From an uncultured virus (IMG/VR IMGVR_UViG_3300027969_000081) (lineage: Duplodnaviria > Heunggongvirae > Uroviricota > Caudoviricetes): a DNA stretch of 64,000 nt. The stretch is from IMG/VR virus record IMGVR_UViG_3300027969_000081. The stretch is one strand, 5' to 3'. Shown piece by piece: positions 942 through 48,552 of the stretch (positions are counted from its first letter, which is position 1; each line of letters starts with the position of its first letter). Under the pieces are notes generated by a model. That model was not told where the DNA came from and did no database searches. It saw only the letters and a program-made list of their open reading frames with translations. Made by a program: the position numbers and the translations under genes.

Positions 942-1964
942 ATGACCCAATCTTTTAAAAAAGCTGTCTGCTTTACAGACATACATTTTGGCCTACGAAA
1001 TAATAGTCGTAGTCACAATGACGATTGTGAAAACTTCATTAAATGGATGACACAAGAAGCCAAGAAGGAAGGTGCTGAAACTTGCATCTTCCTTGGAGAT
1101 TGGCATAATAATCGTGCAAACATTAATGTAAGCACTCTAAACTATACAACATCTAACATCAAATATCTCTCAGAGAACTTTGAAAAGGTGTATATTATTA
1201 TGGGTAATCACGATTTGGCCTATAGAGAAAAGCGAGAAATTAACTCACTTCCTTTTGGTGATTATTTGAATAATGTTGTACTAGTCAATGATGTGTTAAC
1301 TGTTGGCGACATGACTATTGTTCCTTGGCTAGTTGGTGACGAATGGGAGACAATGAAAAAGCTCAAGAGCCGTTATGTGTTTGGACACTTTGAACTGCCT
1401 CACTTTAAAATGAACGCCATGGTAGAGATGCCAGATCATGGAGGTTTAAACGAAGGACATTTTCCTAACCAAGAACTTGTGTTCTCTGGACATTTTCATA
1501 AGCGTCAACAACGAGGTAATGTAGTATACATGGGAAATTGTTTCCCGCACAACTATGCTGATGCATGGGATGACGAACGTGGATGTATGTTTTTAGAGTA
1601 TGGCGGTCAACCTGACTTTAGAATATGGCCGGCTGCACCAAAATTTAAAACTTTGACATTGACTCAGGCAATTGACCGTCATGAAGAACTGTTTGATAGT
1701 CAAACATTTGCTCGTGTTACCATTGACGTTGATATTAGTTACGAAGAGGCAAGCTATATCAAAGAACAATGGGTAACTACCTATAACATGCGCGAGCTTA
1801 GTTTAATTCCTGGTAAAACTGAGGAACATGCAACTGAGTGGGAAGGTGGAGAAATTCTCTTTGAAAGCGTAGATGCTATTGTACTAAATCAGATTCAAGC
1901 AATTGATAGCGATGTCATTGACAAACAAATTTTAACCAGCATATATCAAGGGCTCACACATTGA
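942..1964 (+). CDS. gp47: Recombination endonuclease subunit, T4 gp47/SbcD/Mre11-like
   Basis: Metallophosphoesterase motifs DIHFG, GDWH, GNHD, GHFH; directly upstream of gp46. Confidence 0.93.
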   Translation: MTQSFKKAVCFTDIHFGLRNNSRSHNDDCENFIKWMTQEAKKEGAETCIFLGDWHNNRANINVSTLNYTTSNIKYLSENFEKVYIIMGNHDLAYREKREINSLPFGDYLNNVVLVNDVLTVGDMTIVPWLVGDEWETMKKLKSRYVFGHFELPHFKMNAMVEMPDHGGLNEGHFPNQELVFSGHFHKRQQRGNVVYMGNCFPHNYADAWDDERGCMFLEYGGQPDFRIWPAAPKFKTLTLTQAIDRHEELFDSQTFARVTIDVDISYEEASYIKEQWVTTYNMRELSLIPGKTEEHATEWEGGEILFESVDAIVLNQIQAIDSDVIDKQILTSIYQGLTH

Positions 1965-3739
1965 TCACTTTTAAAAATTTAACAATCAAGAATTTTATGA
2001 GCGTGGGTAATGTTACTCAGGCTCTTCGCATGGATCAACATAGTTTGACTCTGGTGCTTGGTAATAATCTTGATTTGGGTGGCGATGGTGCCCGTAATGG
2101 CGTTGGTAAAACTACCATGGTCAATGCACTAAGCTATGCATTGTTTGGCGGCGCATTGACTAACATTCGTAAAGAAAATCTCATCAATAAGACCAATGGA
2201 AAAAATATGTTGGTCACTGTTGAGTTTGAAAAGAATGGCAACAAGTATATTATTGAACGTGGACGTAAACCAAACTTATTAAGATTTATTGTTGACGACC
2301 ACGAAGTTAACGAAGCAGGCACAGATGAAGGTGCTGGTGAAAATCGTGTTACTCAGGAAGCGATTGATCATGTGGTTGGTATGAGTGCTGACATGTTCAA
2401 GCACATTGTTGCTCTTAACACATATACACAGCCGTTCTTAAGTTTACGTGCAAATGAGCAACGTGACATTATTGAAGAATTGCTCGGTATCACATTATTA
2501 AGTGAAAAAGCTGACATCCTTAAAGAACAAATTAAAAACAGTAAGGAAATGATACGAGATGAGGAGTCACGTGTTAAAGCCTTACAAGAAAGTAATCAAC
2601 GAGTACAGACCAGCATTGATGATCTTGAAAGACGTTCGGGTGTATGGGCTCGAAAAAAGTCTGACGATATTAGAAATTTCAAAGCAGCCATCAACGAACT
2701 AGAAGGCACAGACATTGATGCAGAGCTTGATGCACATCGAGCATTGGTAACATTTAAAGAAAATGAAAGTCGCCTAAAGTTAGCCAATAAAGAACTTGCA
2801 AATCGTCAAAGCAATGTTAAAAAGTTAGAAGATGCACTTGCCGTAGTTTGTAAAAATTTAGAAGATATTAAAGAGCATCGTTGCCCTAGCTGTGGACAAG
2901 GTGTGCATGATGTACAGCACGATCAAATGACTGCATCAGCACAAGAATCAGTTTCTATAACTGAAAAGGCTCTTCGAGATGAACATGAGTTGCTGGCTCA
3001 AGCAATTTATATGGCACAAAGTATTGGCCAACTCGGAAACAGGCCAACTACAAAATATATCAGTGTTGAGGATGCTGCCGCTCATAAAAATAATTTAGAA
3101 AATATCAAGAAACAACTTGAAATCAAGAATCAAGAAGATGATCCTTATCAAGAACAAATTGAAGCAATGCGTAACACTGCCCTTGCTGTGGTCAGCTGGG
3201 ATGAGATTAATCGTGTAAGTAAACTTCTAGAACATCAAGAATTCCTGCTAAAACTGCTAACTAGTAAGGATTCGTTTGTTCGAAAACGTATTATTGAACA
3301 AAATCTGGCATACTTAAATCACAGATTGGGTCAATATTTAGATAGGTTACAATTGCCGCACCAAGTAATTTTTAAAAGCGATTTAGAAGTGGATATTAGT
3401 CAACTTGGGCAAAGCTTTGATTTTGATAATCTGAGCCGCGGCGAAAGAAATAGGTTAATTCTAGCACTAAGCTGGAGTTTCCGAGATGTGTATGAAAGCT
3501 TTACAGAGCCAATGAATCTTATGTTCATTGACGAGCTAGTTGATTCTGGGATGGATAGTGTAGGCATTGAAAACTCAATGTCTGTACTAAAATCCATGGG
3601 AAGAGAGATGAATCGCAATATTTTCCTTATTTCGCATAGGGATGAACTGGCAAGTAGGGTAAATAATGTACTCATGGTAGTCAAACAGAACGGATTTACC
3701 ATGCTGGACACCGATACACAGGTGAATGAAATTACATAA
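1961..3739 (+). CDS. gp46: Recombination ATPase subunit, T4 gp46/SbcC/Rad50-like
   Basis: Walker A NGVGKTT, coiled coil with CPSC zinc hook, LSRGE signature, FIDE Walker B, ISH. Confidence 0.95.
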   Translation: MITFKNLTIKNFMSVGNVTQALRMDQHSLTLVLGNNLDLGGDGARNGVGKTTMVNALSYALFGGALTNIRKENLINKTNGKNMLVTVEFEKNGNKYIIERGRKPNLLRFIVDDHEVNEAGTDEGAGENRVTQEAIDHVVGMSADMFKHIVALNTYTQPFLSLRANEQRDIIEELLGITLLSEKADILKEQIKNSKEMIRDEESRVKALQESNQRVQTSIDDLERRSGVWARKKSDDIRNFKAAINELEGTDIDAELDAHRALVTFKENESRLKLANKELANRQSNVKKLEDALAVVCKNLEDIKEHRCPSCGQGVHDVQHDQMTASAQESVSITEKALRDEHELLAQAIYMAQSIGQLGNRPTTKYISVEDAAAHKNNLENIKKQLEIKNQEDDPYQEQIEAMRNTALAVVSWDEINRVSKLLEHQEFLLKLLTSKDSFVRKRIIEQNLAYLNHRLGQYLDRLQLPHQVIFKSDLEVDISQLGQSFDFDNLSRGERNRLILALSWSFRDVYESFTEPMNLMFIDELVDSGMDSVGIENSMSVLKSMGREMNRNIFLISHRDELASRVNNVLMVVKQNGFTMLDTDTQVNEIT

Positions 3740-3751
3740 AGGAAAATTAAT

Positions 3752-3991
3752 ATGTCTACTCCAACTCATGCCGCACTTGTTGCTCTATTAGATACATACA
3801 AGGCAGAAAGCGAAAAGTTTAACAATGGTGCTGTCAAGGCCGCTGGAAGCCGTGCAAAACGTGCTCTACGCGACATTACAAAAATGGCTAAGGTTCGTAA
3901 GGATGAAATCCACACGATCACTAATCCAGAAGGTTCCGCTCGTCAAGCTGAGAAAAAGGCTGCTCGCGTTGCCGCTAAGATTGCCAAATAA
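3752..3991 (+). CDS. Small basic histone H1-like (Hc1-type) DNA-binding protein
   Basis: EKF..G.KAAGSRAKRAL..I.K..K pattern and Lys/Ala-rich tail; SD AAGGA upstream. Confidence 0.6.
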   Translation: MSTPTHAALVALLDTYKAESEKFNNGAVKAAGSRAKRALRDITKMAKVRKDEIHTITNPEGSARQAEKKAARVAAKIAK

Positions 3992-4006
3992 TCATTAACT
4001 TAGTTA

Positions 4007-4435
4007 ATGACTTGGTCATATCAAGGCACTGAAGTTATGGACTTACCCGACGACACCGTCGGGTTTGTCTACTTAATAACAAACACAGTTGACGGAAGAA
4101 AGTATGTAGGTAAAAAGTTAGCTAAGTTTGCTAAAACCTCCTACAAGGTAGTAAAGCTTAAAAATGGTACCAAGAAGAAGAAAAAGATTCGTAGCAAAAT
4201 TGATTCTGATTGGCGAGAGTATTATGGCTCAAACGATCACTTAAACAAAGATGTAGTAACCTTAGGCAAAGAAAAATTTACACGCGAAATATTACATTAC
4301 TGCAATTCAAAAGCAGTGTGTTCGTATATTGAAGCTCGAGAACAATTTGAAAGAAAAGTTTTAGAGTCAACTGATTATTATAACGGTCAAATTTCGGTTC
4401 GCGTACATGGCTCACATATCATAAACAAACTATAA
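4007..4435 (+). CDS. Stand-alone minimal GIY-YIG nuclease
   Basis: GFVY...YVG motif, YYGS, conserved Glu helix (YIEAREQF), YYN; poly-Lys insert; no C-terminal DNA-binding domain. Confidence 0.85.
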   Translation: MTWSYQGTEVMDLPDDTVGFVYLITNTVDGRKYVGKKLAKFAKTSYKVVKLKNGTKKKKKIRSKIDSDWREYYGSNDHLNKDVVTLGKEKFTREILHYCNSKAVCSYIEAREQFERKVLESTDYYNGQISVRVHGSHIINKL

Positions 4436-4885
4436 CACCGGCTCCTTTAGTTCCCATAGCGTCAATCGCACACTAACACAATACTCCATCTCTACCGATA
4501 GGCTTCGCGCAGGCCGGTTGTAATGCGCCCTAAACCTGGACACACGTATCGCAGGGACGGAAATTGTGCGCGGTAGCACAGACTTATCACCACTATCCTT
4601 AACAGGACGTAAGTCAAACGGTATGAAACTGGCTTGGTGTAAGAATTGCAAGACCAAAATGAGTAGGCTCTGTTGAACTATTACAACCTACAAGAATACA
4701 AGAACAGTTTGGATTGTTGTTGTGTTCTGCGTTATTCAAGTCTAGTGTAAAAAGGTACAGCGTAACCGCCTTTACTGTGCAAACAGTTGCTTAATCCAAA
4801 GTGGCATAGGGGTCTGAGTCAAGAACCAAATGTTTTCCTTAGCCTGTCAAGGCTAAGTGTGACTAGATAATCTAAGTCAAGTAAT
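4436..4885 (+). ncRNA. Candidate large structured non-coding RNA (~450 nt)
   Basis: No credible ORF; about ten stems found by eye, several needing G-U pairs on the + strand, plus an 8-bp long-range match 4708-4715/4793-4800. Confidence 0.6.
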
Positions 4886-5035
4886 CATAATGTTAGTAAA
4901 ATTTAAATCATATATCTGTATAAACAATACAAAATATAAACTGTAAAAATACTAATTAAAAAATGAAATGAATGAGCAATCACGAAGTGATGCGATATTC
5001 AAGGGCGAAGTACTTCGCCCGATTAAGATAATACA
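4886..5035. other. AT-rich tract plus GAA-loop hairpin and 18-bp palindrome; origin-like or bidirectional termination zone
   Basis: A/T-rich 4886-4970; ATCAC-GAA-GTGAT 4979-4991; GGGCGAAGTACTTCGCCC 5003-5020; lies where + and - genes converge. Confidence 0.4.
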
Positions 5036-5257
5036 TTATCTTCTAGCAATACCTTTCTTACCATACATTGTTTCTGTACGTTCTTTAATTGTTTCACTAA
5101 GGACTAATCTTTCTAAATATGTCATGTCCCATATGGTCTCTGGATTAATAGAACCCCATACACTTAGTTCTGACACTTCCCTTATTAAGGCTCTTGAGTC
5201 TGCTTCTATACCCTCGATAAAGCGAGCAATGCTGGCTCTATCAAGACCTAACATCAA
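5036..5257 (-). CDS. Small ORF after the gp26-like gene; probable -1 frameshift extension (tail chaperone 'T'-like)
   Basis: Overlaps the upstream stop, in -1 frame, no clear SD; IWDMTYLER resembles the C-terminal segments of tail chaperones. Confidence 0.6.
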   Translation of the reverse strand: MMLGLDRASIARFIEGIEADSRALIREVSELSVWGSINPETIWDMTYLERLVLSETIKERTETMYGKKGIARR

Positions 5258-6159
5258 GAGCCGATTTCGAAAAAACTTGTTGGATCAAACAACATGTCAC
5301 TGGTGTAGTCTTCACCGCAATAATCACAATGTACCTTAATTGTTTTAATGATACCATATTCGTTAAAACGTTTTACTTCTTGATCTAGTCGTTCATGACT
5401 TGCTCGATCTAAATTCTTAACCCATTCAGCGATATGGCTTGGGTTTGATACTTCTGTACCGTCGGGTAACATAACGCTAATGATACATTCACCCATTGTT
5501 TCCTGACTCAATGATACTAAATCATTGTAACCCTTGTTGGCAATTGCAGCCTTTTGATCAATTGTCATTCTTTCGTCTACTTCAGCCGCCTGTAATTGAC
5601 GCATGGTAGTAAATTGCACACGTAACAATTTACTTTGTGCTTCCAGTGTGTATGGTTTTAAATTCACTTTGATACCAGAACCTAATGTAACAATGCCAAC
5701 GTCATCGGGTACATTACGTAGTGTACCTAACACACTACCAAGTCCAACAACCACATGTTGACTTTTATTTTGATCTTTACTTTTACTTTGATTACATCCG
5801 TGATGAATGTTCAAGCTCATATCGTCACCATAGCTGGTCATACGCATTGCAACTAAAATTGCATCAACATCAGTTGTTGGAATTTCATTTACGTTTGCAA
5901 TGTCTGGACATACAGAAGTTATAACATGCTTCAATGCTTCGCCGTTGAGCAACGAATCTGGATTTTTTAAAATCAGCTCATCTTTAGCAGTCATTGGATA
6001 AACAGCCAATTCTCCGTTGTCGGAAAGCTTTGGCGGCGTTTTATAAAATCTCCCCTGGCTTGGAAGTTCAATATAGGTACCTGGTCGACGGTAATATTGT
6101 GACAACGGATTTGCCGAAGCTGACTTTATTGGTCTATTAAGTGGGTTGGAGTTATCCAT
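5254..6159 (-). CDS. Baseplate hub subunit/tail assembly chaperone, T4 gp26-like
   Basis: RRP.TYIELPS, MTAKDELILK, DVDAILVAMR..SYG, CDYC, ends SFF; ATG 6159 preceded by AAGGA. Confidence 0.75.
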   Translation of the reverse strand: MDNSNPLNRPIKSASANPLSQYYRRPGTYIELPSQGRFYKTPPKLSDNGELAVYPMTAKDELILKNPDSLLNGEALKHVITSVCPDIANVNEIPTTDVDAILVAMRMTSYGDDMSLNIHHGCNQSKSKDQNKSQHVVVGLGSVLGTLRNVPDDVGIVTLGSGIKVNLKPYTLEAQSKLLRVQFTTMRQLQAAEVDERMTIDQKAAIANKGYNDLVSLSQETMGECIISVMLPDGTEVSNPSHIAEWVKNLDRASHERLDQEVKRFNEYGIIKTIKVHCDYCGEDYTSDMLFDPTSFFEIGS

Positions 6160-6177
6160 GTAGTTAATCCTTGTTGG

Positions 6178-6217
6178 TAAATAGGCTATAGGTGCCAATT
6201 TATATTAAATGTATTTA
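6178..6217. promoter_or_regulatory. Face-to-face late-type promoters (+ TAAATA 6178-6183; - TAAATA 6212-6217)
   Basis: One motif on each strand between the divergent gp26-like and tape measure genes. Confidence 0.55.
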
Positions 6218-6252: not shown

Positions 6253-8961
6253 ATGAGTGATGGAATAACAAAAGACGAACTTAATGAATCCTTAGATAGA
6301 TTCTTTAAAAAGTTATCTGAATTGTCGTCTACTGTAGGCCGCGGTGGACCTACAGGCAATAAAGCTGGCTCAACTGGTGGAACTAAAGCAAAAACTCCCG
6401 ATACTCCAGAAGAACGTGCTTATGCAGAAAAAATTAAACGTCTAAATAAGTTACACGAAGCTGGTATTAAATTAAGTAGCGAAGATGCAGAAGCATTAAA
6501 AGAACATACCAAGCAAACAGAAGATCTAACTGATGCTACAAAAGACCTAGAGTCTAGCATGAAGTATACCAAGAAGCAACTGGTTGGCCTTGGTAAAGAC
6601 ATGCTGACAGGCAATGGCAGTTTAGGAGAAGCATCGGGACGATTGGCCAGTATATTTGAAGATAGTTCAAGTCGTGCAGGCCGTGCAATTTATGGATTTG
6701 CCGCTGGAGCCAGCTTTGCATTAGGCGCAATGGAGAATTTTGCTAAAAGTGCCGCTGACATGGGTGCATTTGCGGACCTTGGAGCATTCAGTGTTGGATC
6801 ACTTAGACAAGCCAAACTATTAAGTGGACTTGGTGATAGTTTTATTAAAGTTATTGAGAACAGCCAAGGCGGGTTCAAAGCATTTGGTTCAAACAGTCAG
6901 GCAGCAACAGAAAATTTAAGTAACTTGGCACGTGGCCTTCGTTTAGGGTCATATGCATTAAACAGTACACTACGTAAAAATCTTGGAACAGAACTGGTTG
7001 GAACCATGAACAAGGCTGCCAAGTCAACCGCAGCCATGGGACTAAGTCAAGAAGACCAAGCTAACTTGATGGGAACAATCTCCTCAAATGTACAATTGAA
7101 TGCAGAAAACGAACAAGATGCACAGCGTAAGTTGGTTAAACAATACGCTGAAACTGTAGATTCAGCACGTACACTAAGCAATACATTTGGTACCAGTGCA
7201 AAAGAAATCCTAAAAAGTATTGAAAACTTTAATAAGAGTACCGCAGGTAAAGCTGCCGCATTACAAGGTGTTTCTGGTGCTCAAGAAATTAAGCAAGCAC
7301 TGGCCGCTGCCGGTGTACAAGGCAGTGAAGAGGACATGAACAGAATGGCTCTTGCTTTGGCCAAAGGGCAAGGCATGGGTGTAGCTGGAACTTATACTAC
7401 TCCTGAATCAATGGCAAACTTGCAAGCAGTTTCAAATGCAGTTGATCAAGCTAAACAAGCAGGCGGCGGCAAAGTTACAGCAGAAGGTCTTAGCCAAGGA
7501 ATGCAGTCTCAGCGTGGTACATTTGAAGCAATTGGCCGACAACGTCAGGACTTGGGTGCCAAAGGTCAAGAAGGTTTATTTGACACTGGTGTTGCTGCCG
7601 CAGAACTTGCTAAAAAATTAGATTTACAAGCCAAAGCAGCCGCAGGTGATCAAAAAGCAAGAGACGAATTGGCCAAACAAGGTACAACTACCGAAGCAGA
7701 TAATATTCAAACCATGGATAGATTAACTGGTGCTCTTGATAGTTTACGTGGATTTATTATTGGATTAACTGCATCTGTAATAGGACTAACTGGCATGCTT
7801 GCCCCATTGGTATTAGGTGGCGCAGGCGCCTTAATTGGCGGATTAACAGGCAAAGGCGGCGGACTATTAGGTGGTTTACTTGGTAAAGGTGCAGGAGCCG
7901 CTGGTGCAGGAGCAGCCGGAGCCGCTGGTGCAGGAGCAGCCGCTGGTGGCGGCGCAGGTAGTGCTATTGGTAATACCTTAGGCGGATTAGGTACTGGGTT
8001 AGGAACATTGTTAGAAGGGTTAGGAAAAGGTATCGGAAAAGGTGCTTCTGCAATATTAGAAGGACTAGCAACTGGCCTTAAATTCTTTGCAGATCCAATG
8101 ATTTTATTAGGTGCCGCAATCCTTGGCGGCGCAATTACATTAATTGGCGCTGGTATTGCAGGTGCCACGTGGATATTAGGTAAAGCATTACCAACATTTG
8201 CAGAAGGACTTGCTTCGTTTGACAACATCAACGGTGACAATTTAATTAAAATTGGAGGCGGATTAGCTGCCATGGGTGCAGGTGCAGTTGTATTTGCTGC
8301 CGGTATGGCTGCGGCCACTGCTGGTAGTATATTAACAGGTATCATGGGCTTATTTGGGGCCAAGAGTCCATTGGAAAAGGTAATGGAATTTGTGCCTTAT
8401 GCAGATGCTATCAGTGCATTGGGGCAGGGTATGTTAAATTTTGGCAATGGTATCATTGCAATGAAGACTGGATTGGCTGGATTGGCTGGTGTTGATATAT
8501 CTAATTTAACAACCTTATTAAGTGACAAGGGTCCATTGAGTAAAATCAAACAATTTGCTGAAAACTCCAATAGTGTCAGTATATTAGGCAAAGGAATATT
8601 AGATTTTGGTAATGGTATCATTGCCATGAATACAGGATTAGAATCATTAGATGTAGAAAAACTAGCAAATTTCAAACAAAACTTAACTGAGATCAGTAGT
8701 TTAAATTTAGGAAACTTATCAAGCATTGGGTCAGTTATTGGATCTAATCAAGTAAGTGTTGATACATCTACTGTTCCTACTAAATTTGCAAGTGATGCTA
8801 TTAATTCAAACCCTAATGCTAGTAACATTGCTCAAAGCACAGTAACTCCGGAACTAATTGCACAATTTACCAGCTATCTTTCAAACATACAGAATGATTT
8901 GCAAGCAATTAGGGGTAATACAAAAGGATCACCTTCTGTTGCTCCGGTAAGATTATCGTAA
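6253..8961 (+). CDS. Tape measure protein
   Basis: 902 aa, Ala/Gly-rich helical, hydrophobic GLG repeats; adjacent to the chaperone-like gene. Confidence 0.8.
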   Translation: MSDGITKDELNESLDRFFKKLSELSSTVGRGGPTGNKAGSTGGTKAKTPDTPEERAYAEKIKRLNKLHEAGIKLSSEDAEALKEHTKQTEDLTDATKDLESSMKYTKKQLVGLGKDMLTGNGSLGEASGRLASIFEDSSSRAGRAIYGFAAGASFALGAMENFAKSAADMGAFADLGAFSVGSLRQAKLLSGLGDSFIKVIENSQGGFKAFGSNSQAATENLSNLARGLRLGSYALNSTLRKNLGTELVGTMNKAAKSTAAMGLSQEDQANLMGTISSNVQLNAENEQDAQRKLVKQYAETVDSARTLSNTFGTSAKEILKSIENFNKSTAGKAAALQGVSGAQEIKQALAAAGVQGSEEDMNRMALALAKGQGMGVAGTYTTPESMANLQAVSNAVDQAKQAGGGKVTAEGLSQGMQSQRGTFEAIGRQRQDLGAKGQEGLFDTGVAAAELAKKLDLQAKAAAGDQKARDELAKQGTTTEADNIQTMDRLTGALDSLRGFIIGLTASVIGLTGMLAPLVLGGAGALIGGLTGKGGGLLGGLLGKGAGAAGAGAAGAAGAGAAAGGGAGSAIGNTLGGLGTGLGTLLEGLGKGIGKGASAILEGLATGLKFFADPMILLGAAILGGAITLIGAGIAGATWILGKALPTFAEGLASFDNINGDNLIKIGGGLAAMGAGAVVFAAGMAAATAGSILTGIMGLFGAKSPLEKVMEFVPYADAISALGQGMLNFGNGIIAMKTGLAGLAGVDISNLTTLLSDKGPLSKIKQFAENSNSVSILGKGILDFGNGIIAMNTGLESLDVEKLANFKQNLTEISSLNLGNLSSIGSVIGSNQVSVDTSTVPTKFASDAINSNPNASNIAQSTVTPELIAQFTSYLSNIQNDLQAIRGNTKGSPSVAPVRLS
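7894..7941 (+). repeat. 24-bp perfect tandem duplication in tape measure gene
   Basis: GGAGCCGCTGGTGCAGGAGCAGCC twice (GAAGAGAA). Confidence 0.85.
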
Positions 8962-8993: not shown

Positions 8994-10655
8994 ATGAGCT
9001 GGCGTAAACATTTTAAAATCTGGGACCCGGAGCAAGACCTAAGTCAAACCCAAGGTCGCCAGGGAGCCGGATCATCTGCAAAATTTTCAAGTTGGTTACA
9101 GGAAGTATATACTGGTCAGCCAAATCGTGTTGAACGATATGTTCAATATGACCAAATGGACATGGACAGCGAAGTAAATGCCGCATTAGATACCATTGCT
9201 GAATTTTGTACACAGGCAAATCCAAAAACAAATCTGCCGTTTAGTGTTGTATGGAAAGAAGATCCTACTGACAGTGAAAGCACCATTGTACAAGAATCAA
9301 TGAGAAAGTGGTGTGCAATTAACACTATTCATCAACGCATTTTTAGAATATTCCGTAGTACTATCAAGTATGGCGATCATTTCTTTTTACGAGATCCAGA
9401 AACATTTGAATTGTATTGGATAAATCCATGTGATGTTAAACGAGCAGTAATTAATGAAGCAGATGGCCGTGCAGTTGAACAATATGTTATTGCCAACATA
9501 CATCCAAACTTAGCAGTCAAAGTTGCTACAAAACCAATTGAAAGTGTAAAAACTCTTGCAAGCACTGCAACAACCAGTGCCATGGGTCCGTATTCAAATC
9601 CATCAAACTATTCAAAGCCAGGTAGTCAAGGTGGAGAAGTAGCAATTGATGCAAAACATATTATTCATATTACATTAAACGAAGGCTTAGATGTTAGTTG
9701 GCCATTTGGCGGAAGCATCTTAGATAGTATCTTTAAGATTTACAAGCAAAAAGAACTATTAGAAGATGCTATTATTATCTATCGTGTTCAACGTGCCCCA
9801 GAACGACGTGTTTTTTATATTGATACAGGTAATTTACCAGCGCACCAAGCAATGGCATTTGTTGAAAGAGTTAAAAATGAAATCCATCAACGACGTATTC
9901 CAACACGAACTGGCGGCGGCACAGCACTAGATGCAAGCTATAATCCATTGAGTATCTTAGAAGATTTCTTCTTTGCTCAAACAGCAGATGGTCGTGGTAG
10001 TAAAGTTGAAGTGCTACCAGGTGGACAAGGACTTGGAGAGATTGACGACTTAAAGTTCTTTACTAATAAAATGCTTCGTGGCCTACGTATTCCAAGTAGC
10101 TATCTACCAACTGGCCCCGATGACACTGGCGCACAATACACTGATGGTAAACTTGGAACAGCAATGATTCAAGAATTCCGTTTCAATAGTTATTGCCGCA
10201 GATTACAAGGGCTAATTGCACCATTTTTAGATAAAGAGTTTAAGGTTTTCTTAAAGAATCGTGGAGTAAACATTGATAGTTCAAGTTTTGACATTGATTT
10301 CTTAGAGCCACAAAATTTTAGTGCGTATCGTGAAATTGAAGTTAATAATGCTCGTGCAACTACATTTACTCAGCTTGCAGATATTGCATATCTAAGTCAT
10401 CGTTATAAATTGAAAAAGTTCTTGGGACTGGATGATGATGAAATCTTAGAAAACGAACGCTTATGGAAAGAAGAGAATGCTGACGAAAAAACAGCAGTTG
10501 CTGGTAATGAAAGTGCCGGATTCTCTGCTACTGGATTGTCAGGACCATCTGAAATAGACCTTGAAACAACGGGTAATTTAGAAGCTGGAGCCGAAGCCGA
10601 AACTGAAGCTGGTGCAGAAGGTGGCGCAGCCGAAGAAACTGTTCCACCAGTTTAA
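8994..10655 (+). CDS. gp20: Portal protein, T4 gp20-like
   Basis: LLEDAIIIYRVQRAPERRVFYIDTGNLP, EDFFF, LPGGQ.LGEIDD, LRIPSS. Confidence 0.95.
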   Translation: MSWRKHFKIWDPEQDLSQTQGRQGAGSSAKFSSWLQEVYTGQPNRVERYVQYDQMDMDSEVNAALDTIAEFCTQANPKTNLPFSVVWKEDPTDSESTIVQESMRKWCAINTIHQRIFRIFRSTIKYGDHFFLRDPETFELYWINPCDVKRAVINEADGRAVEQYVIANIHPNLAVKVATKPIESVKTLASTATTSAMGPYSNPSNYSKPGSQGGEVAIDAKHIIHITLNEGLDVSWPFGGSILDSIFKIYKQKELLEDAIIIYRVQRAPERRVFYIDTGNLPAHQAMAFVERVKNEIHQRRIPTRTGGGTALDASYNPLSILEDFFFAQTADGRGSKVEVLPGGQGLGEIDDLKFFTNKMLRGLRIPSSYLPTGPDDTGAQYTDGKLGTAMIQEFRFNSYCRRLQGLIAPFLDKEFKVFLKNRGVNIDSSSFDIDFLEPQNFSAYREIEVNNARATTFTQLADIAYLSHRYKLKKFLGLDDDEILENERLWKEENADEKTAVAGNESAGFSATGLSGPSEIDLETTGNLEAGAEAETEAGAEGGAAEETVPPV

Positions 10656-10682
10656 TTTTTAAACTTTTAGATAAGTAGTTTT

Positions 10683-10889
10683 ATGAGATTTAACGACTTA
10701 ATTAGAGCTGAAAATGAAATTGAAGAGGAGATTGATCCAGAAGTTGCATTCTATGGTGATCTCCGTCGAAAACGTCTGACCTTAGAGCATGTTAATCGTT
10801 TAAGAAAATTGCGCGACATGCGCGATTACGAAAATAAACAACGTTTAACACTAGTACGAAAAATGTATGCTAGACCCCCAGCGGTCTAA
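10683..10889 (+). CDS. Small prohead-associated protein (hypothetical)
   Basis: Between portal and core genes; TAAGTA 5 nt upstream of ATG. Confidence 0.6.
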   Translation: MRFNDLIRAENEIEEEIDPEVAFYGDLRRKRLTLEHVNRLRKLRDMRDYENKQRLTLVRKMYARPPAV

Positions 10890-11032
10890 TACATGATTTG
10901 TTAAAAAATTATTACTACTTTTGTCAAAAAAGTAGTTTTTTCTGCCTTTATACCTCATTTTCTGTGCGCCAATAGTAAGTAGTTATTGGTGCATTGGTAC
11001 TCTCGTACCCCTTAGCGCAAGGAGAAAAAACA

Positions 11033-26163: not shown

Positions 26164-26190
26164 TCCGCAAACTGAAGGAGGAGACAAAAA

Positions 26191-26385
26191 ATGGCAATTC
26201 TTCCAGCAACCGGATCGGCTATTGTTATGGGTGGAGTTTATAGAGCATACTATAACTCCGTAGCTGGCGCTGGTACTAACGTGGCTCTTCGTAGCACACT
26301 TGGTAGCAGAATCAGTATCAGTACTGGTGCAATCAGTCTAAGTTCAAACTTTGGCGGACGCACTACACCATACACATATCCATAA
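26191..26385 (+). CDS. Small fibre-tip/adaptor-like protein
   Basis: Strong SD GGAGG; GAISLSSNFGG motif; follows the fibre gene. Confidence 0.55.
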   Translation: MAILPATGSAIVMGGVYRAYYNSVAGAGTNVALRSTLGSRISISTGAISLSSNFGGRTTPYTYP

Positions 26386-26407
26386 TAGGGATTGATGTAA
26401 GTCAGGG

Positions 26408-26437
26408 AAAGGGTGGATTATTCCACCCTTTCTTTTT
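26408..26437 (+). terminator. Intrinsic terminator
   Basis: AAAGGGTGGA-TTAT-TCCACCCTTT plus T tract. Confidence 0.8.
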
Positions 26438-43969: not shown

Positions 43970-43989
43970 TCAATCTTGTCAACTGCTAC

Positions 43990-44013
43990 AAAGGTTCCAT
44001 CTTGGAACCTTTT
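43990..44013 (+). terminator. Intrinsic terminator
   Basis: AAAGGTTCCA-TCT-TGGAACCTTT plus T tract. Confidence 0.75.
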
Positions 44014-44014
44014 C

Positions 44015-44117
44015 ATTTGTCCAGATCTGGACAAATTAATCTATTTTGGCTATTGCTTTTTACCTGCAGGTATAAGTATAATACAACACATGCAAAGACA
44101 ATCTAAGCATGTGTTGT
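44015..44117 (+). promoter_or_regulatory. gp32 control region: 22-bp palindrome, composite sigma70/late promoter and 5' hairpin
   Basis: ATTTGTCCAGATCTGGACAAAT; TTGCTT-18-TATAAT with overlapping TAAGTA; stem ACAACACATGC/GCATGTGTTGT. Confidence 0.65.
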
Positions 44118-44172
44118 TTGGCTCACCAGAGACTAAAACACTAACATTGGCTAATACAAAGGAAAATTTATT

Positions 44173-48194: not shown

Positions 48195-48220
48195 AACTGC
48201 TTAAAAACTAGACAATTTTA

Positions 48221-48252
48221 AAGGTGTTGTACAAATACAACACTTTTTTTTT
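48221..48252 (+). terminator. Terminator/inverted repeat upstream of early promoters
   Basis: GTGTTGTA-CAAA-TACAACAC followed by a long T run. Confidence 0.7.
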
Positions 48253-48272
48253 GGCAAAAATTTTAAAATCAG

Positions 48273-48301
48273 TTGACGTTTGGGCCTATTTGCCATATAA
48301 T
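48273..48301 (+). promoter_or_regulatory. sigma70-type early promoter
   Basis: TTGACG-17-TATAAT with A-rich upstream element. Confidence 0.75.
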
Positions 48302-48330
48302 AGTTACATACTAAGCAAACAGGGATAAAC

Positions 48331-48510
48331 ATGCAATACACACTGATTACAAAATCTGGTAAAGTAATGCAGTTTCACATTAAAGCGGTTGCTGAGTTGT
48401 ATCAAACGCTCAATGGTGGTGTTGTAATTACGCCACAAGTGCTGAAAATACAGGAAATTTTACAAAAAGAGGCAGAAAACGGTTGCTCTTTGAGCCAAAC
48501 CGCAGTATAA
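48331..48510 (+). CDS. 59-aa early hypothetical protein (absent from ORF track)
   Basis: MQYTLITKSGKVMQFHIKAVAELYQ...; AGGGA SD; right after the promoter. Confidence 0.6.
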   Translation: MQYTLITKSGKVMQFHIKAVAELYQTLNGGVVITPQVLKIQEILQKEAENGCSLSQTAV

Positions 48511-48511
48511 T
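48483..48511 (+). promoter_or_regulatory. Second sigma70-type early promoter
   Basis: TTGCTC-17-TATAAT. Confidence 0.65.
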
Positions 48512-48552
48512 CAATACTGTAGCAAGTTAATTAATCCACGCAAAGGAAAACA

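What the first reader, a model, noticed from the sequence alone, without database searches (positions are those of the whole stretch)
4007..4885. Minimal GIY-YIG nuclease directly followed by a ~450-nt structured, pseudoknot-capable RNA: candidate nuclease-RNA system
Seen: this is the only long non-coding stretch in the window, and it starts 1 nt after the nuclease stop. Stems found: ACCGGC 4437-4442/GCCGGT 4513-4518 (closing a ~70-nt weakly paired segment); CCTG 4535-4538/CAGG 4552-4555; TGTGC 4565-4569/GCACA 4576-4580; GACTTA 4581-4586/TAAGTC 4610-4615 with nested TCCT/AGGA; TTGGT 4634-4638/ACCAA 4653-4657; GTAGG 4663-4667/CCTAC 4687-4691; AGAATACA 4693-4700/TGTGTTCT 4721-4728; AAAGG/CCTTT around 4751-4773; CTTAGCCT 4838-4845/AGGCTAAG 4850-4857. 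G-U pairs favour a + strand RNA. Known: homing GIY-YIG enzymes such as I-TevI carry separate DNA-binding domains, whereas this 142-aa protein has only the catalytic domain and a KKKKKIR insert; IscB/HEARO and TnpB show compact nucleases partnering adjacent RNAs. Inference: the RNA may supply specificity or a scaffold (the 4444-4511 segment is a guide candidate), be a ribozyme, or act as a replication preprimer. I do not recognise it as a named family.
Basis: partly seen in the sequence, partly recalled or inferred. Interest (0 to 1): 0.92.

Follow-up and report, generated by a model that had tools for sequence, protein, structure and literature searches.

The report
Large structured RNA beside phage nuclease
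A folded RNA of about 400 bases and unknown function, whose front third is an already catalogued RNA family, lies just after a small DNA-cutting enzyme gene in many freshwater T4-like phages, but the two look like conserved neighbours, not obligate partners.

Summary
The ORF and the non-coding stretch are real. ORF 4007-4435 is a 142-aa SegE-type GIY-YIG nuclease. Window 4502-4641 (+) is a full-length member of Rfam RF01718, the Polynucleobacter-1 RNA (94.7 bits, cut-off 37). That family was described in 2010 and its function is unknown.

The Rfam model covers only the 5' third. A conserved, covarying 3' domain follows, reaching about 4893: a hairpin with a UAC..AACCG loop, then two identical 8-nt boxes on either side of another hairpin. 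No Rfam model matches it. It occurs in phage loci with or without the RF01718 part, and in Polynucleobacter chromosomes.

The linkage is tight. 110 of 118 RNA-anchored viral loci have the GIY-YIG gene just upstream, and 5 have a PD-(D/E)xK nuclease instead. But it is one syntenic locus of one phage lineage. The nuclease family is single-copy in 458 GenBank phages, and the two complete genomes tested lack the RNA. Bacterial copies lack the nuclease. The proposed guide (4444-4511) is a spacer of variable length, nearly absent in most relatives.

Best reading: an autonomous large non-coding RNA, not an RNA-guided nuclease. The two boxes change together, and nothing so far explains this.

The parts
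3752..3991 (+). Hc1-like (histone H1-like) small protein gene, last gene before the nuclease in the Mre11/Rad50-like operon
   Evidence: Pfam PF07432 Hc1, E 3.8e-06. An ORF family at the same syntenic position is present in 50 related loci.
4007..4435 (+). 142-aa GIY-YIG nuclease: catalytic domain only, with a Lys-rich beta-hairpin insert
   Evidence: PF19835, E 1e-32. phrog_447, E 1.9e-36, full length. GFVY, Y33-x-G35, R62, E94 and N126 are invariant or nearly so in homologues. AF2 model pLDDT 91.5. The weak best sensible fold match is the I-TevI catalytic domain.
4436..4491 (+).
   Evidence: The gap from stop codon to Rfam-model start is 56 nt or less in 47 of 50 relatives. Length and sequence vary among the closest relatives. 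No match longer than 10 nt elsewhere in the window.
4492..4501 (+). Conserved leader (ACUACYGAUAGG), likely 5' boundary of the RNA
   Evidence: Conserved in phage relatives and as ACUACUG in bacterial copies, where a TAnAAT-like box precedes it in 5 of 8. The boundary is inferred.
4502..4641 (+). 5' domain = Rfam RF01718, Polynucleobacter-1 RNA
   Evidence: 94.7 bits, gathering score 37, model positions 1-141 of 141. Covariation.
4642..4750 (+). Middle region: conserved A-rich linker, hairpin 4663-4691, variable long hairpin 4693-4728, conserved GCGTTAT..AAGTC block
   Evidence: Alignments A4 and A5 with compensatory changes.
4751..4773 (+). Hairpin hp2: 5-bp stem with conserved loop UAC.G...AACCG
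   Evidence: A regex finds it in 113 of 265 sources, and the stem covaries. It lies a fixed 141-166 nt from the CTATCC core, 191-204 nt in 3 loci. Pair counts.
4813..4823 (+). Box R1 (TCTGAGTCAAG)
   Evidence: It co-varies in parallel with R2.
4838..4857 (+). Hairpin hp3 (CTTAGCCT / AGGCTAAG)
   Evidence: Conserved with compensatory changes across phage classes and bacteria.
4859..4881 (+). GTGAC motif, 7-nt spacer, and box R2 (TCTAAGTCAAG, 4871-4881)
4882..5020 (.). A/T-rich tail and inverted repeat GGGCGAAGTACTTCGCCC (5003-5020), between the convergent transcription units
   Evidence: Similarity to relatives ends near 4893 and resumes at 4966-5039. The scan called no canonical terminator. 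A role as a two-way terminator is inferred.

Best explanation
Window ~4492-4893 (+) encodes one large structured non-coding RNA of about 400 nt. Its 5' third is the known Polynucleobacter-1 RNA (RF01718). Its 3' two-thirds is a conserved domain that no Rfam model covers: hairpin hp2, box R1, hairpin hp3, a GUGAC motif, and box R2.

In this phage lineage the RNA sits at the end of the Mre11/Rad50-like recombination operon. It is most likely made by read-through from the nuclease gene (inferred). In bacteria it appears to have its own promoter (inferred).

I read it as an autonomous, trans-acting RNA carried by mobile elements of freshwater Burkholderiales: T4-like phages and chromosomal islands. 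On this reading the two identical 8-nt boxes set its specificity, by binding a protein or by pairing with a nucleic acid supplied in trans (inferred).

The neighbouring GIY-YIG protein is a conserved single-copy nuclease of this phage group and works without the RNA. The adjacency is conserved gene order.
For: RNA identity and structure.
- RF01718 match: 94.7 bits, full length.
- On 98 copies, 94.5% of cells are paired against 68.5% in shuffles. 25 of 29 pairs show double changes. Covariation score is 0.672 against 0.212; slid controls stay at or below 0.10.
- Conserved G-U pairs (GU in 68 and UG in 58 of 95 rows) point to the + strand.

The RNA is larger than the Rfam model.
- hp2 lies at a fixed distance from the core.
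- A 43-sequence alignment gives 42 predicted pairs, 31 with compensatory changes.
- The 3' domain aligns across class A phage loci, class B phage loci and bacterial loci. There 81.6% of cells are paired against 68.2%, and 10 of 17 pairs show double changes, on an unfitted alignment.

Independence from the nuclease.
- 21 of 25 true RNA hits in bacterial assemblies have no GIY-YIG.
- RF01718 is found in 18 of 151 genomes of the genus sample, 17 over the family's cut-off.
- 5 of 8 nuclease-less viral RNA loci have a PD-(D/E)xK gene in that position.
- Of the 25 GIY-YIG loci without RF01718 that have enough DNA downstream, 21 carry one of two other 5' domains, classes B and C.
- The GIY-YIG family occurs once per genome in 458 GenBank phages. 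Melnitz-3 and S-SRM01 have no RF01718 and only 148- and 88-nt gaps after the gene.
- In an unbiased Rad50-anchored sample, 68 of 71 loci carry a small nuclease here: 58 GIY-YIG and 10 PD-(D/E)xK. This is a resident gene, not a sporadic one.

Twin boxes.
- The first 7 nt of R1 and R2 are identical in 57 of 63 RNAs. There are 26 distinct cores. Mean distance is 3.24 of 8 between rows, and 0 of 10,000 permutations do as well.
- Mutual information between corresponding R1 and R2 columns is about 1.0 bit. No other column exceeds 0.62.
Against: No transcript data. The one RNA run that held any of the stretch covered only 3700-3737 and 3811-3958. Expression, ends and processing are therefore unshown.

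The adjacency is very tight. 110 of 118 RNA-anchored loci have the nuclease, and the RNA often starts at the stop codon.

In both contexts the RNA sits beside a DNA-cleaving or DNA-joining enzyme that has only a catalytic domain: GIY-YIG or PD-(D/E)xK in phages, and in bacteria a ~190-aa tyrosine recombinase 0.66-1.6 kb downstream for 16 of 21 copies. This is what a functional link would also predict.

The trans partner of the boxes is unidentified. The 'trans-acting' claim rests only on finding no cis partner. The phage loci are phylogenetically non-independent, and the two locus sets overlap.
Confidence: 0.55

Rival explanations
1. Nuclease-RNA system. The RNA binds the small neighbouring DNA enzyme and acts as guide, scaffold, activator or inhibitor. 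The enzyme would be the GIY-YIG nuclease, or elsewhere a PD-(D/E)xK nuclease or a catalytic-domain-only tyrosine recombinase.
For: Adjacency on the same strand holds in 110 of 118 RNA-anchored loci and 50 of 80 protein-anchored loci, with a gap of 56 nt or less in 47 of 50. The protein has no DNA-binding domain beyond the catalytic fold. Three unrelated DNA-enzyme families lie beside the RNA. The twin boxes vary between lineages and look like specificity elements.
Against: The nuclease family is widespread without the RNA. The RNA occurs without the nuclease. Very similar nucleases (68-82% identity) sit beside three different 5' domains. No single-stranded variable segment of guide length lies at a fixed position; the proposed one is a dispensable spacer. 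Box cores do not track nuclease type: L090, which has the PD-(D/E)xK gene, carries box-region sequence like the window's. No complement of the boxes was found in the 64-kb window or in 20-kb bacterial loci. The bacterial recombinase family is mostly found without the RNA (77 of 151 genomes against 18).
Confidence: 0.17
2. Cis-acting element of the transcript or of the DNA. Candidates are a 3'-UTR stabiliser or processing platform at the end of the operon, a replication-origin pre-primer, or a packaging or replication signal shared between phages and host islands. In the DNA versions the twin boxes would be repeated binding sites (iteron-like) for one protein.
For: It sits at the 3' end of an operon where two transcription units converge. 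Parallel co-variation of direct repeats is the behaviour expected of repeated binding sites for one co-evolving protein. The same element occurs in phages and in islands of the probable host genus, as satellites share helper signals (analogy, recalled).
Against: More than 40 covarying base pairs and many conserved unpaired bases are far more than a stabiliser or terminator needs. G-U asymmetry argues for RNA and against duplex DNA sites. The scans gave no excess of promoter- or terminator-like sites. The boxes are not repeated elsewhere in the window.
Confidence: 0.2
3. A free-standing homing endonuclease parked next to a conserved RNA gene that serves as its cleavage target, as with Seg or Mob genes beside conserved genes in T4.
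For: The protein matches the SegE GIY-YIG Pfam family. Two nuclease families alternate at the same site. Conserved RNA genes are classic homing targets (recalled).
Against: Occupancy is 68 of 71 loci, not sporadic. There is one copy per genome in 458 phages, including genomes without the RNA. The protein lacks the C-terminal DNA-binding domain typical of Seg enzymes and I-TevI (142 aa; domain architecture recalled). No site with the RNA and no nuclease was seen among phage loci of this lineage.
Confidence: 0.05
4. Remnant or variant of a group I intron carrying its endonuclease ORF.
For: A GIY-YIG ORF next to structured RNA in a T4-like phage recalls the td/I-TevI intron (recalled). A CAGAGACU-like stretch resembles the intron R element (recalled).
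Against: No group I intron hit at E up to 5 in 3900-5300. No interrupted gene: the upstream gene ends at 3991 and the genes downstream are convergent. The RNA occurs in bacteria in an intergenic region without the ORF.
Confidence: 0.02

Closest known systems
Polynucleobacter-1 RNA motif (Rfam RF01718; Weinberg et al. 2010, PMC2864571)
   Same: Window 4502-4641 matches the whole 141-position model at 94.7 bits. The helices and the conserved unpaired bases are the same.
   Different: The published motif rests on 16 sequences from Burkholderiales and fresh-water or estuary metagenomes. It is marked as a probable RNA, possibly cis-regulatory, function unknown (main-text table row and supplement passages). 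Here it is the 5' domain of a ~400-nt RNA with a conserved 3' domain. It is abundant in T4-like phage contigs and lies after a gene, not in front of one. I could not read the paper's Additional file 3, which may comment on gene context.
OMEGA-type nuclease RNAs (IscB/HEARO, TnpB)
   Same: A compact nuclease gene is immediately adjacent to a large structured RNA on the same strand. For TnpB the RNA starts at the end of the ORF (recalled; the TnpB abstract PMC10690162 was seen in a search listing).
   Different: Co-occurrence is not obligate. The nuclease fold is GIY-YIG, not RuvC or HNH. No guide segment was found. The element is not a transposon but a fixed syntenic locus.
Large phage-associated ornate RNAs (GOLLD, ROOL)
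   Same: Large, multi-domain RNAs of unknown function, carried by phages or prophages and found by comparative genomics (the PMC12286853 abstract was seen in a listing).
   Different: No sequence or model similarity: Rfam gave no such hit. This RNA is smaller. The tRNA-neighbour context recalled for GOLLD and ROOL is absent (no tRNAs). Oligomerisation is untested.
T4 Seg endonucleases and I-TevI; T4 endonuclease II
   Same: GIY-YIG catalytic core: Pfam SegE family and a weak fold match to the I-TevI catalytic domain. T4 EndoII is likewise a short stand-alone GIY-YIG enzyme with no extra DNA-binding domain (recalled).
   Different: There is no C-terminal DNA-binding domain. The gene is single-copy and near-universal in its phage group. 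No sequence hit to any solved GIY-YIG structure reached E below 0.1.

Membership tests
Rfam RF01718 Polynucleobacter-1 RNA | Covariance-model score at or above the curated gathering score, over the full model | tested here: met
   94.7 bits against 37, model positions 1-141 of 141, + strand.
Rfam RF01718 Polynucleobacter-1 RNA | Helices kept through compensatory changes in relatives | tested here: met
   25 of 29 pairs show double changes, and 94.5% of cells are paired (model-fitted alignment). RNAalifold on unfitted MAFFT alignments recovers P1, P2, P4 and P5.
GIY-YIG nuclease superfamily | GIY and YIG motifs plus conserved Arg, Glu and Asn of the active site | tested here: met
   PF19835, E 1e-32. 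G19-F-V-Y22, Y33-x-G35, R62, E94 and N126 are invariant or at least 90% conserved. The assignment of these residues to catalysis is recalled.
GIY-YIG nuclease superfamily | GIY-YIG alpha/beta fold | tested here: inconclusive
   The model is confident (pLDDT 91.5). Foldseek gave no match at E 0.001 or better. The I-TevI catalytic domain entries 1ln0 and 1mk0 reach probability 0.82 and 0.75, with TM-score (normalised by target) 0.57 and 0.66.
Free-standing homing endonuclease (Seg type) | Sporadic presence or absence among close relatives | tested here: not met
   A small nuclease is present in 68 of 71 Rad50-anchored loci. There is one copy in each of 458 phage records.
Free-standing homing endonuclease (Seg type) | Separate DNA-binding domain joined to the catalytic domain | tested here: not met
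   The protein is 142 aa, and the Pfam domain covers residues 3-129. The model shows one domain with a beta-hairpin insert.
RNA-guided nuclease system (OMEGA-like) | Obligate co-occurrence of nuclease and RNA | tested here: not met
   The RNA occurs without the nuclease. The nuclease occurs without the RNA.
RNA-guided nuclease system (OMEGA-like) | Variable guide segment at a fixed place in a conserved scaffold, matching a target | tested here: inconclusive
   The proposed 4444-4511 segment is a dispensable spacer. The 8-nt twin boxes are variable and fixed in place, but no target was found in the window or in bacterial loci. Host genomes were not searched.
Group I intron | Match to the intron core model, and an interrupted host gene | tested here: not met
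   No hit at E up to 5. No split gene.

The most novel reading that the evidence does not exclude
The RNA is a programmable specificity module for small DNA enzymes. Its two identical, lineage-specific 8-nt boxes, each held in a conserved frame (GUGAC, spacer, YCU, box), pair with the two arms of an inverted-repeat target, one box per strand. In doing so they position a dimeric enzyme that has only a catalytic domain and is encoded beside the RNA. That enzyme is a GIY-YIG or PD-(D/E)xK nuclease in phages and a ~190-aa tyrosine recombinase in Polynucleobacter islands. This would be an RNA-guided system built on enzyme folds not known to use guides.
Probability: 0.08. Interest if true: 0.92.

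Novelty: new variant of a known kind. Interest (0 to 1): 0.6.

Why it matters
RF01718 has had no known function since 2010, and was catalogued as a 141-nt bacterial motif.

This analysis shows three things. It is shared with islands of the likely host genus.

That gives the motif a biological setting, namely phage infection, in a place next to the recombination genes. It also gives concrete handles for experiments: two 8-nt boxes that always change together. A complex RNA this conserved in lytic phages probably acts in host takeover, defence evasion or DNA transactions.

If the twin boxes prove to be programmable, the interest would be much higher. The result also corrects a tempting over-reading: a small nuclease next to a structured RNA is not by itself evidence for an RNA-guided nuclease.

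Tried and rejected
- Own assembly not held.
- blastn of 3700-5300 against GenBank phages found no match.
- Expression: the only RNA run holding any words (X11) gave two contigs, at 3700-3737 and 3811-3958. There was no cover on the nuclease gene or the RNA, so nothing can be concluded.
- Promoter and terminator scan of 3600-5400: 2 promoter-like sites against a shuffle mean of 4.8, and 0 terminators. Uninformative.
- MFE z-scores were not significant on either strand.
- Rfam at E up to 10 on class B and C loci gave only two junk hits.
- Cis partner for the twin boxes: a complementarity scan found only weak, G-U-rich candidates near the P4 3' strand, and mutual information found no covarying complementary column.
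- Box motif in the window, both strands: 4 matches against 1.77 expected, of which two are the boxes themselves. The longer pattern was at chance level. In three 20-kb bacterial loci there were only the two boxes plus one chance 8-mer.
- 'RNA gene as integration site': no repeat of 14 nt or more from the RNA region elsewhere in three 20-kb bacterial loci, apart from one 14-mer on the opposite strand in one locus. The windows may be too short.
- A regex for twin boxes was mis-framed and missed even the window. I discarded it and used alignment columns instead.
- Sequence search of solved structures gave nothing below E 0.1. Foldseek was weak.
- Literature: only Weinberg 2010 contains 'Polynucleobacter-1'. 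Four further searches found no paper linking it to phages, GIY-YIG or a larger RNA. The library lacks most subscription journals.
- tRNA scans were negative in the window and in 16 bacterial loci.
Full report
**What is at the coordinates.** The window is part of a T4-like myovirus. It holds a Gp20-type portal (8994-10655), a T4 baseplate protein (5254-6198, minus strand), and an Mre11-like phosphoesterase and a Rad50-like ATPase (942-3739). ORF 4007-4435 (+) encodes 142 aa matching Pfam PF19835, the SegE GIY-YIG domain, at E 1e-32 over residues 3-129. The GIY and YIG motifs and the R62, E94 and N126 positions are invariant or nearly so among relatives. An AlphaFold model is confident (pLDDT 91.5) and shows one domain with a long Lys-rich beta-hairpin. 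Foldseek gave no strong match; the only sensible ones are the I-TevI catalytic domain. From 4436 to 5035 there is no credible gene, and the next genes converge from the minus strand.

**The RNA is partly a known family.** Rfam places 4502-4641 (+) in RF01718, the Polynucleobacter-1 RNA, at 94.7 bits (gathering score 37) over the whole model. That motif was published in 2010. It rests on 16 sequences from Burkholderiales and fresh-water or estuary metagenomes. It is rated a probable RNA, possibly cis-regulatory, with unknown function. (I read the main-text table row and supplement passages of PMC2864571; Additional file 3 could not be read.) In the held library it is the only paper that names the motif. 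Four further searches found nothing that links it to phages, GIY-YIG enzymes or a larger RNA.

**Is it more than chance?** Thermodynamics alone says no. The MFE z-score of 4436-4900 is -0.99 on the + strand and -0.65 on the - strand. Comparison says yes.
- I built a covariance model (R1) from 16 copies and aligned 98 copies to it.
- 94.5% of cells are paired against 68.5% in shuffles.
- 25 of 29 pairs show changes on both sides.
- The covariation score is 0.672 against 0.212, and sliding the partners by 1-3 columns drops it to 0.10 or less.
- The alignment is fitted to the model, which favours it. But RNAalifold on plain MAFFT alignments recovers the same helices.
- Conserved G-U pairs (GU in 68 and UG in 58 of 95 rows in one helix) show that the + strand is the folded one.

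**The RNA is much larger than the Rfam model.**
- About 90-100 nt after the motif lies a hairpin (hp2, window 4751-4773) with a covarying 5-bp stem and a conserved loop UAC.G...AACCG. A regex finds it in 113 of 265 sources. In all but three loci it lies 141-166 nt from the CTATCC core.
- A 43-sequence alignment running from the motif to 170 nt past hp2 shows conserved blocks throughout. It gives 42 predicted pairs, 31 with compensatory changes.
- After hp2 come a GUGAC-like word, box R1 (4813-4823), hairpin hp3 (4838-4857), GUGUGAC, and box R2 (4871-4881).
- In the window's closest relatives, similarity runs to about 4893.
ACCGGC/GCCGGT and GACTTA/TAAGTC do not.

**Twin boxes.** R1 and R2 are direct repeats, not complements, and they change together.
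- In 63 RNAs from phages and bacteria, the first 7 nt of the two boxes are identical in 57. The window's row is scored low only because of a one-column misalignment; its boxes differ at 1 of 8 positions.
- There are 26 different cores among the rows. The mean distance between rows is 3.24 of 8.
- None of 10,000 permutations did as well.
- Mutual information between corresponding columns is about 1.0 bit. No other column in the alignment exceeds 0.62.
- I found no complementary partner in cis, none in the 64-kb window, and none in three 20-kb bacterial loci.
- Something outside the RNA seems to read both boxes. I cannot say what.

**How tight is the link to the nuclease?**
- At least 584 viral-contig stretches encode close relatives of the protein (68-82% identity in the 80 kept).
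- Of those 80 loci, 50 carry the RNA on the same strand. Four of the 30 misses have fewer than 200 nt after the gene.
- The gap between the stop codon and the Rfam start is 56 nt or less in 47 of 50. It is 66 nt in the window.
Of these, 110 have the GIY-YIG gene upstream on the same strand, 2 have too little upstream DNA, and 8 have none.
- Of those 8, five have a 173-aa PD-(D/E)xK nuclease (PF24608) in that position, one (L158) has an unrelated context, and two are chance pattern matches.
- These samples overlap each other, and they come from one virus lineage.

**The link is conserved gene order, not a mobile cassette.** The flanks are the same almost everywhere: Mre11-like, Rad50-like, often Hc1-like, nuclease, RNA, about 300 more non-coding bases, then a convergent 72-aa gene and the baseplate gene, or a DUF6614 block.

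For an unbiased view I anchored on the Rad50-like protein. Of 78 loci, 71 had enough downstream DNA. Of these, 58 have GIY-YIG, 10 have PD-(D/E)xK, and 3 have neither. RF01718 is present in 50, hp2 alone in 4, and neither was detected in 17, several of which are cut short. A nuclease present in 68 of 71 loci is a resident gene, not a sporadic homing endonuclease.

**Each partner occurs without the other.**
- The protein family is present exactly once in each of 458 GenBank phage records. Most are cyanophages of the Kyanoviridae; the best match, a Methylophilales phage, is 50% identical.
- Two complete genomes, Melnitz-3 and S-SRM01, have no RF01718. Only 148 and 88 nt follow the gene in them.
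- 25 GIY-YIG loci have enough downstream DNA but no RF01718. Of these, 21 carry other conserved non-coding blocks of 350-450 nt in the same place: 15 are class B and 6 are class C. The other four (L054, L058, L063, L072) have ORFs or a different context after the gene.
- Class B has a different 5' domain that also covaries, joined to the same hp2-R1-hp3-R2 domain. Class C differs again but keeps R1, hp3 and R2. Neither class has an Rfam hit even at E up to 10.
- In bacterial assemblies, 25 pattern hits are true RNAs. Four have the GIY-YIG gene and look like phage contigs. The other 21 do not have it.

**The bacterial context.** In a sample of the genus, 18 of 151 genomes have the RNA (17 over the family's cut-off), in one or two copies. 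That is an accessory element. It lies between a divergent DUF6641 gene and, for 16 of 21 copies, a ~190-aa tyrosine recombinase 0.66-1.6 kb downstream on the same strand. The recombinase has a catalytic domain only. The region looks like a small island that ends at a second, full-length integrase. The bacterial copies carry the 3' domain too, with their own box cores. The small recombinase family is far commoner than the RNA: 77 of 151 genomes, up to 6 copies each.

**The guide hypothesis.** Most of the segment 4444-4511 is a spacer. In most relatives the gap it fills is far shorter than the window's 66 nt (17 nt or less in 25 of 50), and among the closest relatives it ranges from a few nt to over 100 nt. 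It has no match longer than 10 nt elsewhere in the window. Its 3' end lies inside helix P1. It cannot be an essential guide.

**What I conclude.** The reading as an RNA-guided or RNA-dependent nuclease is not supported.

My best explanation (0.55) is an autonomous large non-coding RNA of mobile elements. In phages it is transcribed from the end of the recombination operon, and it acts in trans through its twin boxes.

A functional tie to neighbouring DNA enzymes stays possible (0.17). The RNA sits beside catalytic-domain-only DNA enzymes in both of its contexts.

A cis-acting role keeps about 0.2: transcript processing, an origin or a packaging signal, with the boxes as repeated protein sites.

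Expression is unshown. The single RNA run that shared any words covered only the upstream genes.

Noticed in passing
L009:3430-3650 (class B); L007:3430-3800 (class C): Two further conserved, structured non-coding 5' domains occupy the place of RF01718 after the same nuclease gene. Neither has an Rfam hit, even at E up to 10. Class B has 14 of 44 predicted pairs with compensatory changes among 11 sequences.
   Followed up: partly
window 3752-3991: A histone-H1-like (Hc1, PF07432) 79-aa protein gene lies between the Rad50-like gene and the nuclease. It is conserved in about 50 related loci. This is an unusual gene for a T4-like phage.
   Followed up: no
G-handle genomes of the Polynucleobacter-genus sample; e.g. 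L207:3756-4334: A family of ~190-aa tyrosine recombinases with only the catalytic domain is present in 77 of 151 genomes. There are up to 6 copies per genome, and several have in-frame stops. This looks like a multicopy small mobile element.
   Followed up: partly
window 4007-4435 and phrog_447: The best PHROG family for this GIY-YIG protein is labelled 'NAD synthetase', and many GenBank phage records repeat that label. It looks like a propagated misannotation.
   Followed up: partly
L056:3700-3760, L084, L027 (alignment A5, columns 410-470): Some RNAs carry an optional A/T-rich insert of short tandem repeats (TATAGTCAAC-like) just after hp2.
   Followed up: no
window 10656-10993, 26164-26435, 43970-44172, 48195-48552: Four other stretches of 203-358 nt have no ORF of 70 aa or more under a crude cover. 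None has an Rfam hit at gathering score.
   Followed up: no
window 6253-8961: A 902-aa protein with long Gly/Ala-rich low-complexity stretches and no Pfam family at E up to 0.01 lies between the baseplate and portal genes.
   Followed up: no
L217:4035-4699: A Fic/Doc toxin and a MazE-like antitoxin pair lie about 1 kb downstream of one bacterial copy of the RNA.
   Followed up: no
L090:2715-3236 and 9 further loci: The PD-(D/E)xK protein that replaces GIY-YIG matches a PHROG family annotated as a RusA-like Holliday-junction resolvase. This hints that the slot after Rad50 holds a recombination nuclease, filled by non-orthologous enzymes.
   Followed up: partly
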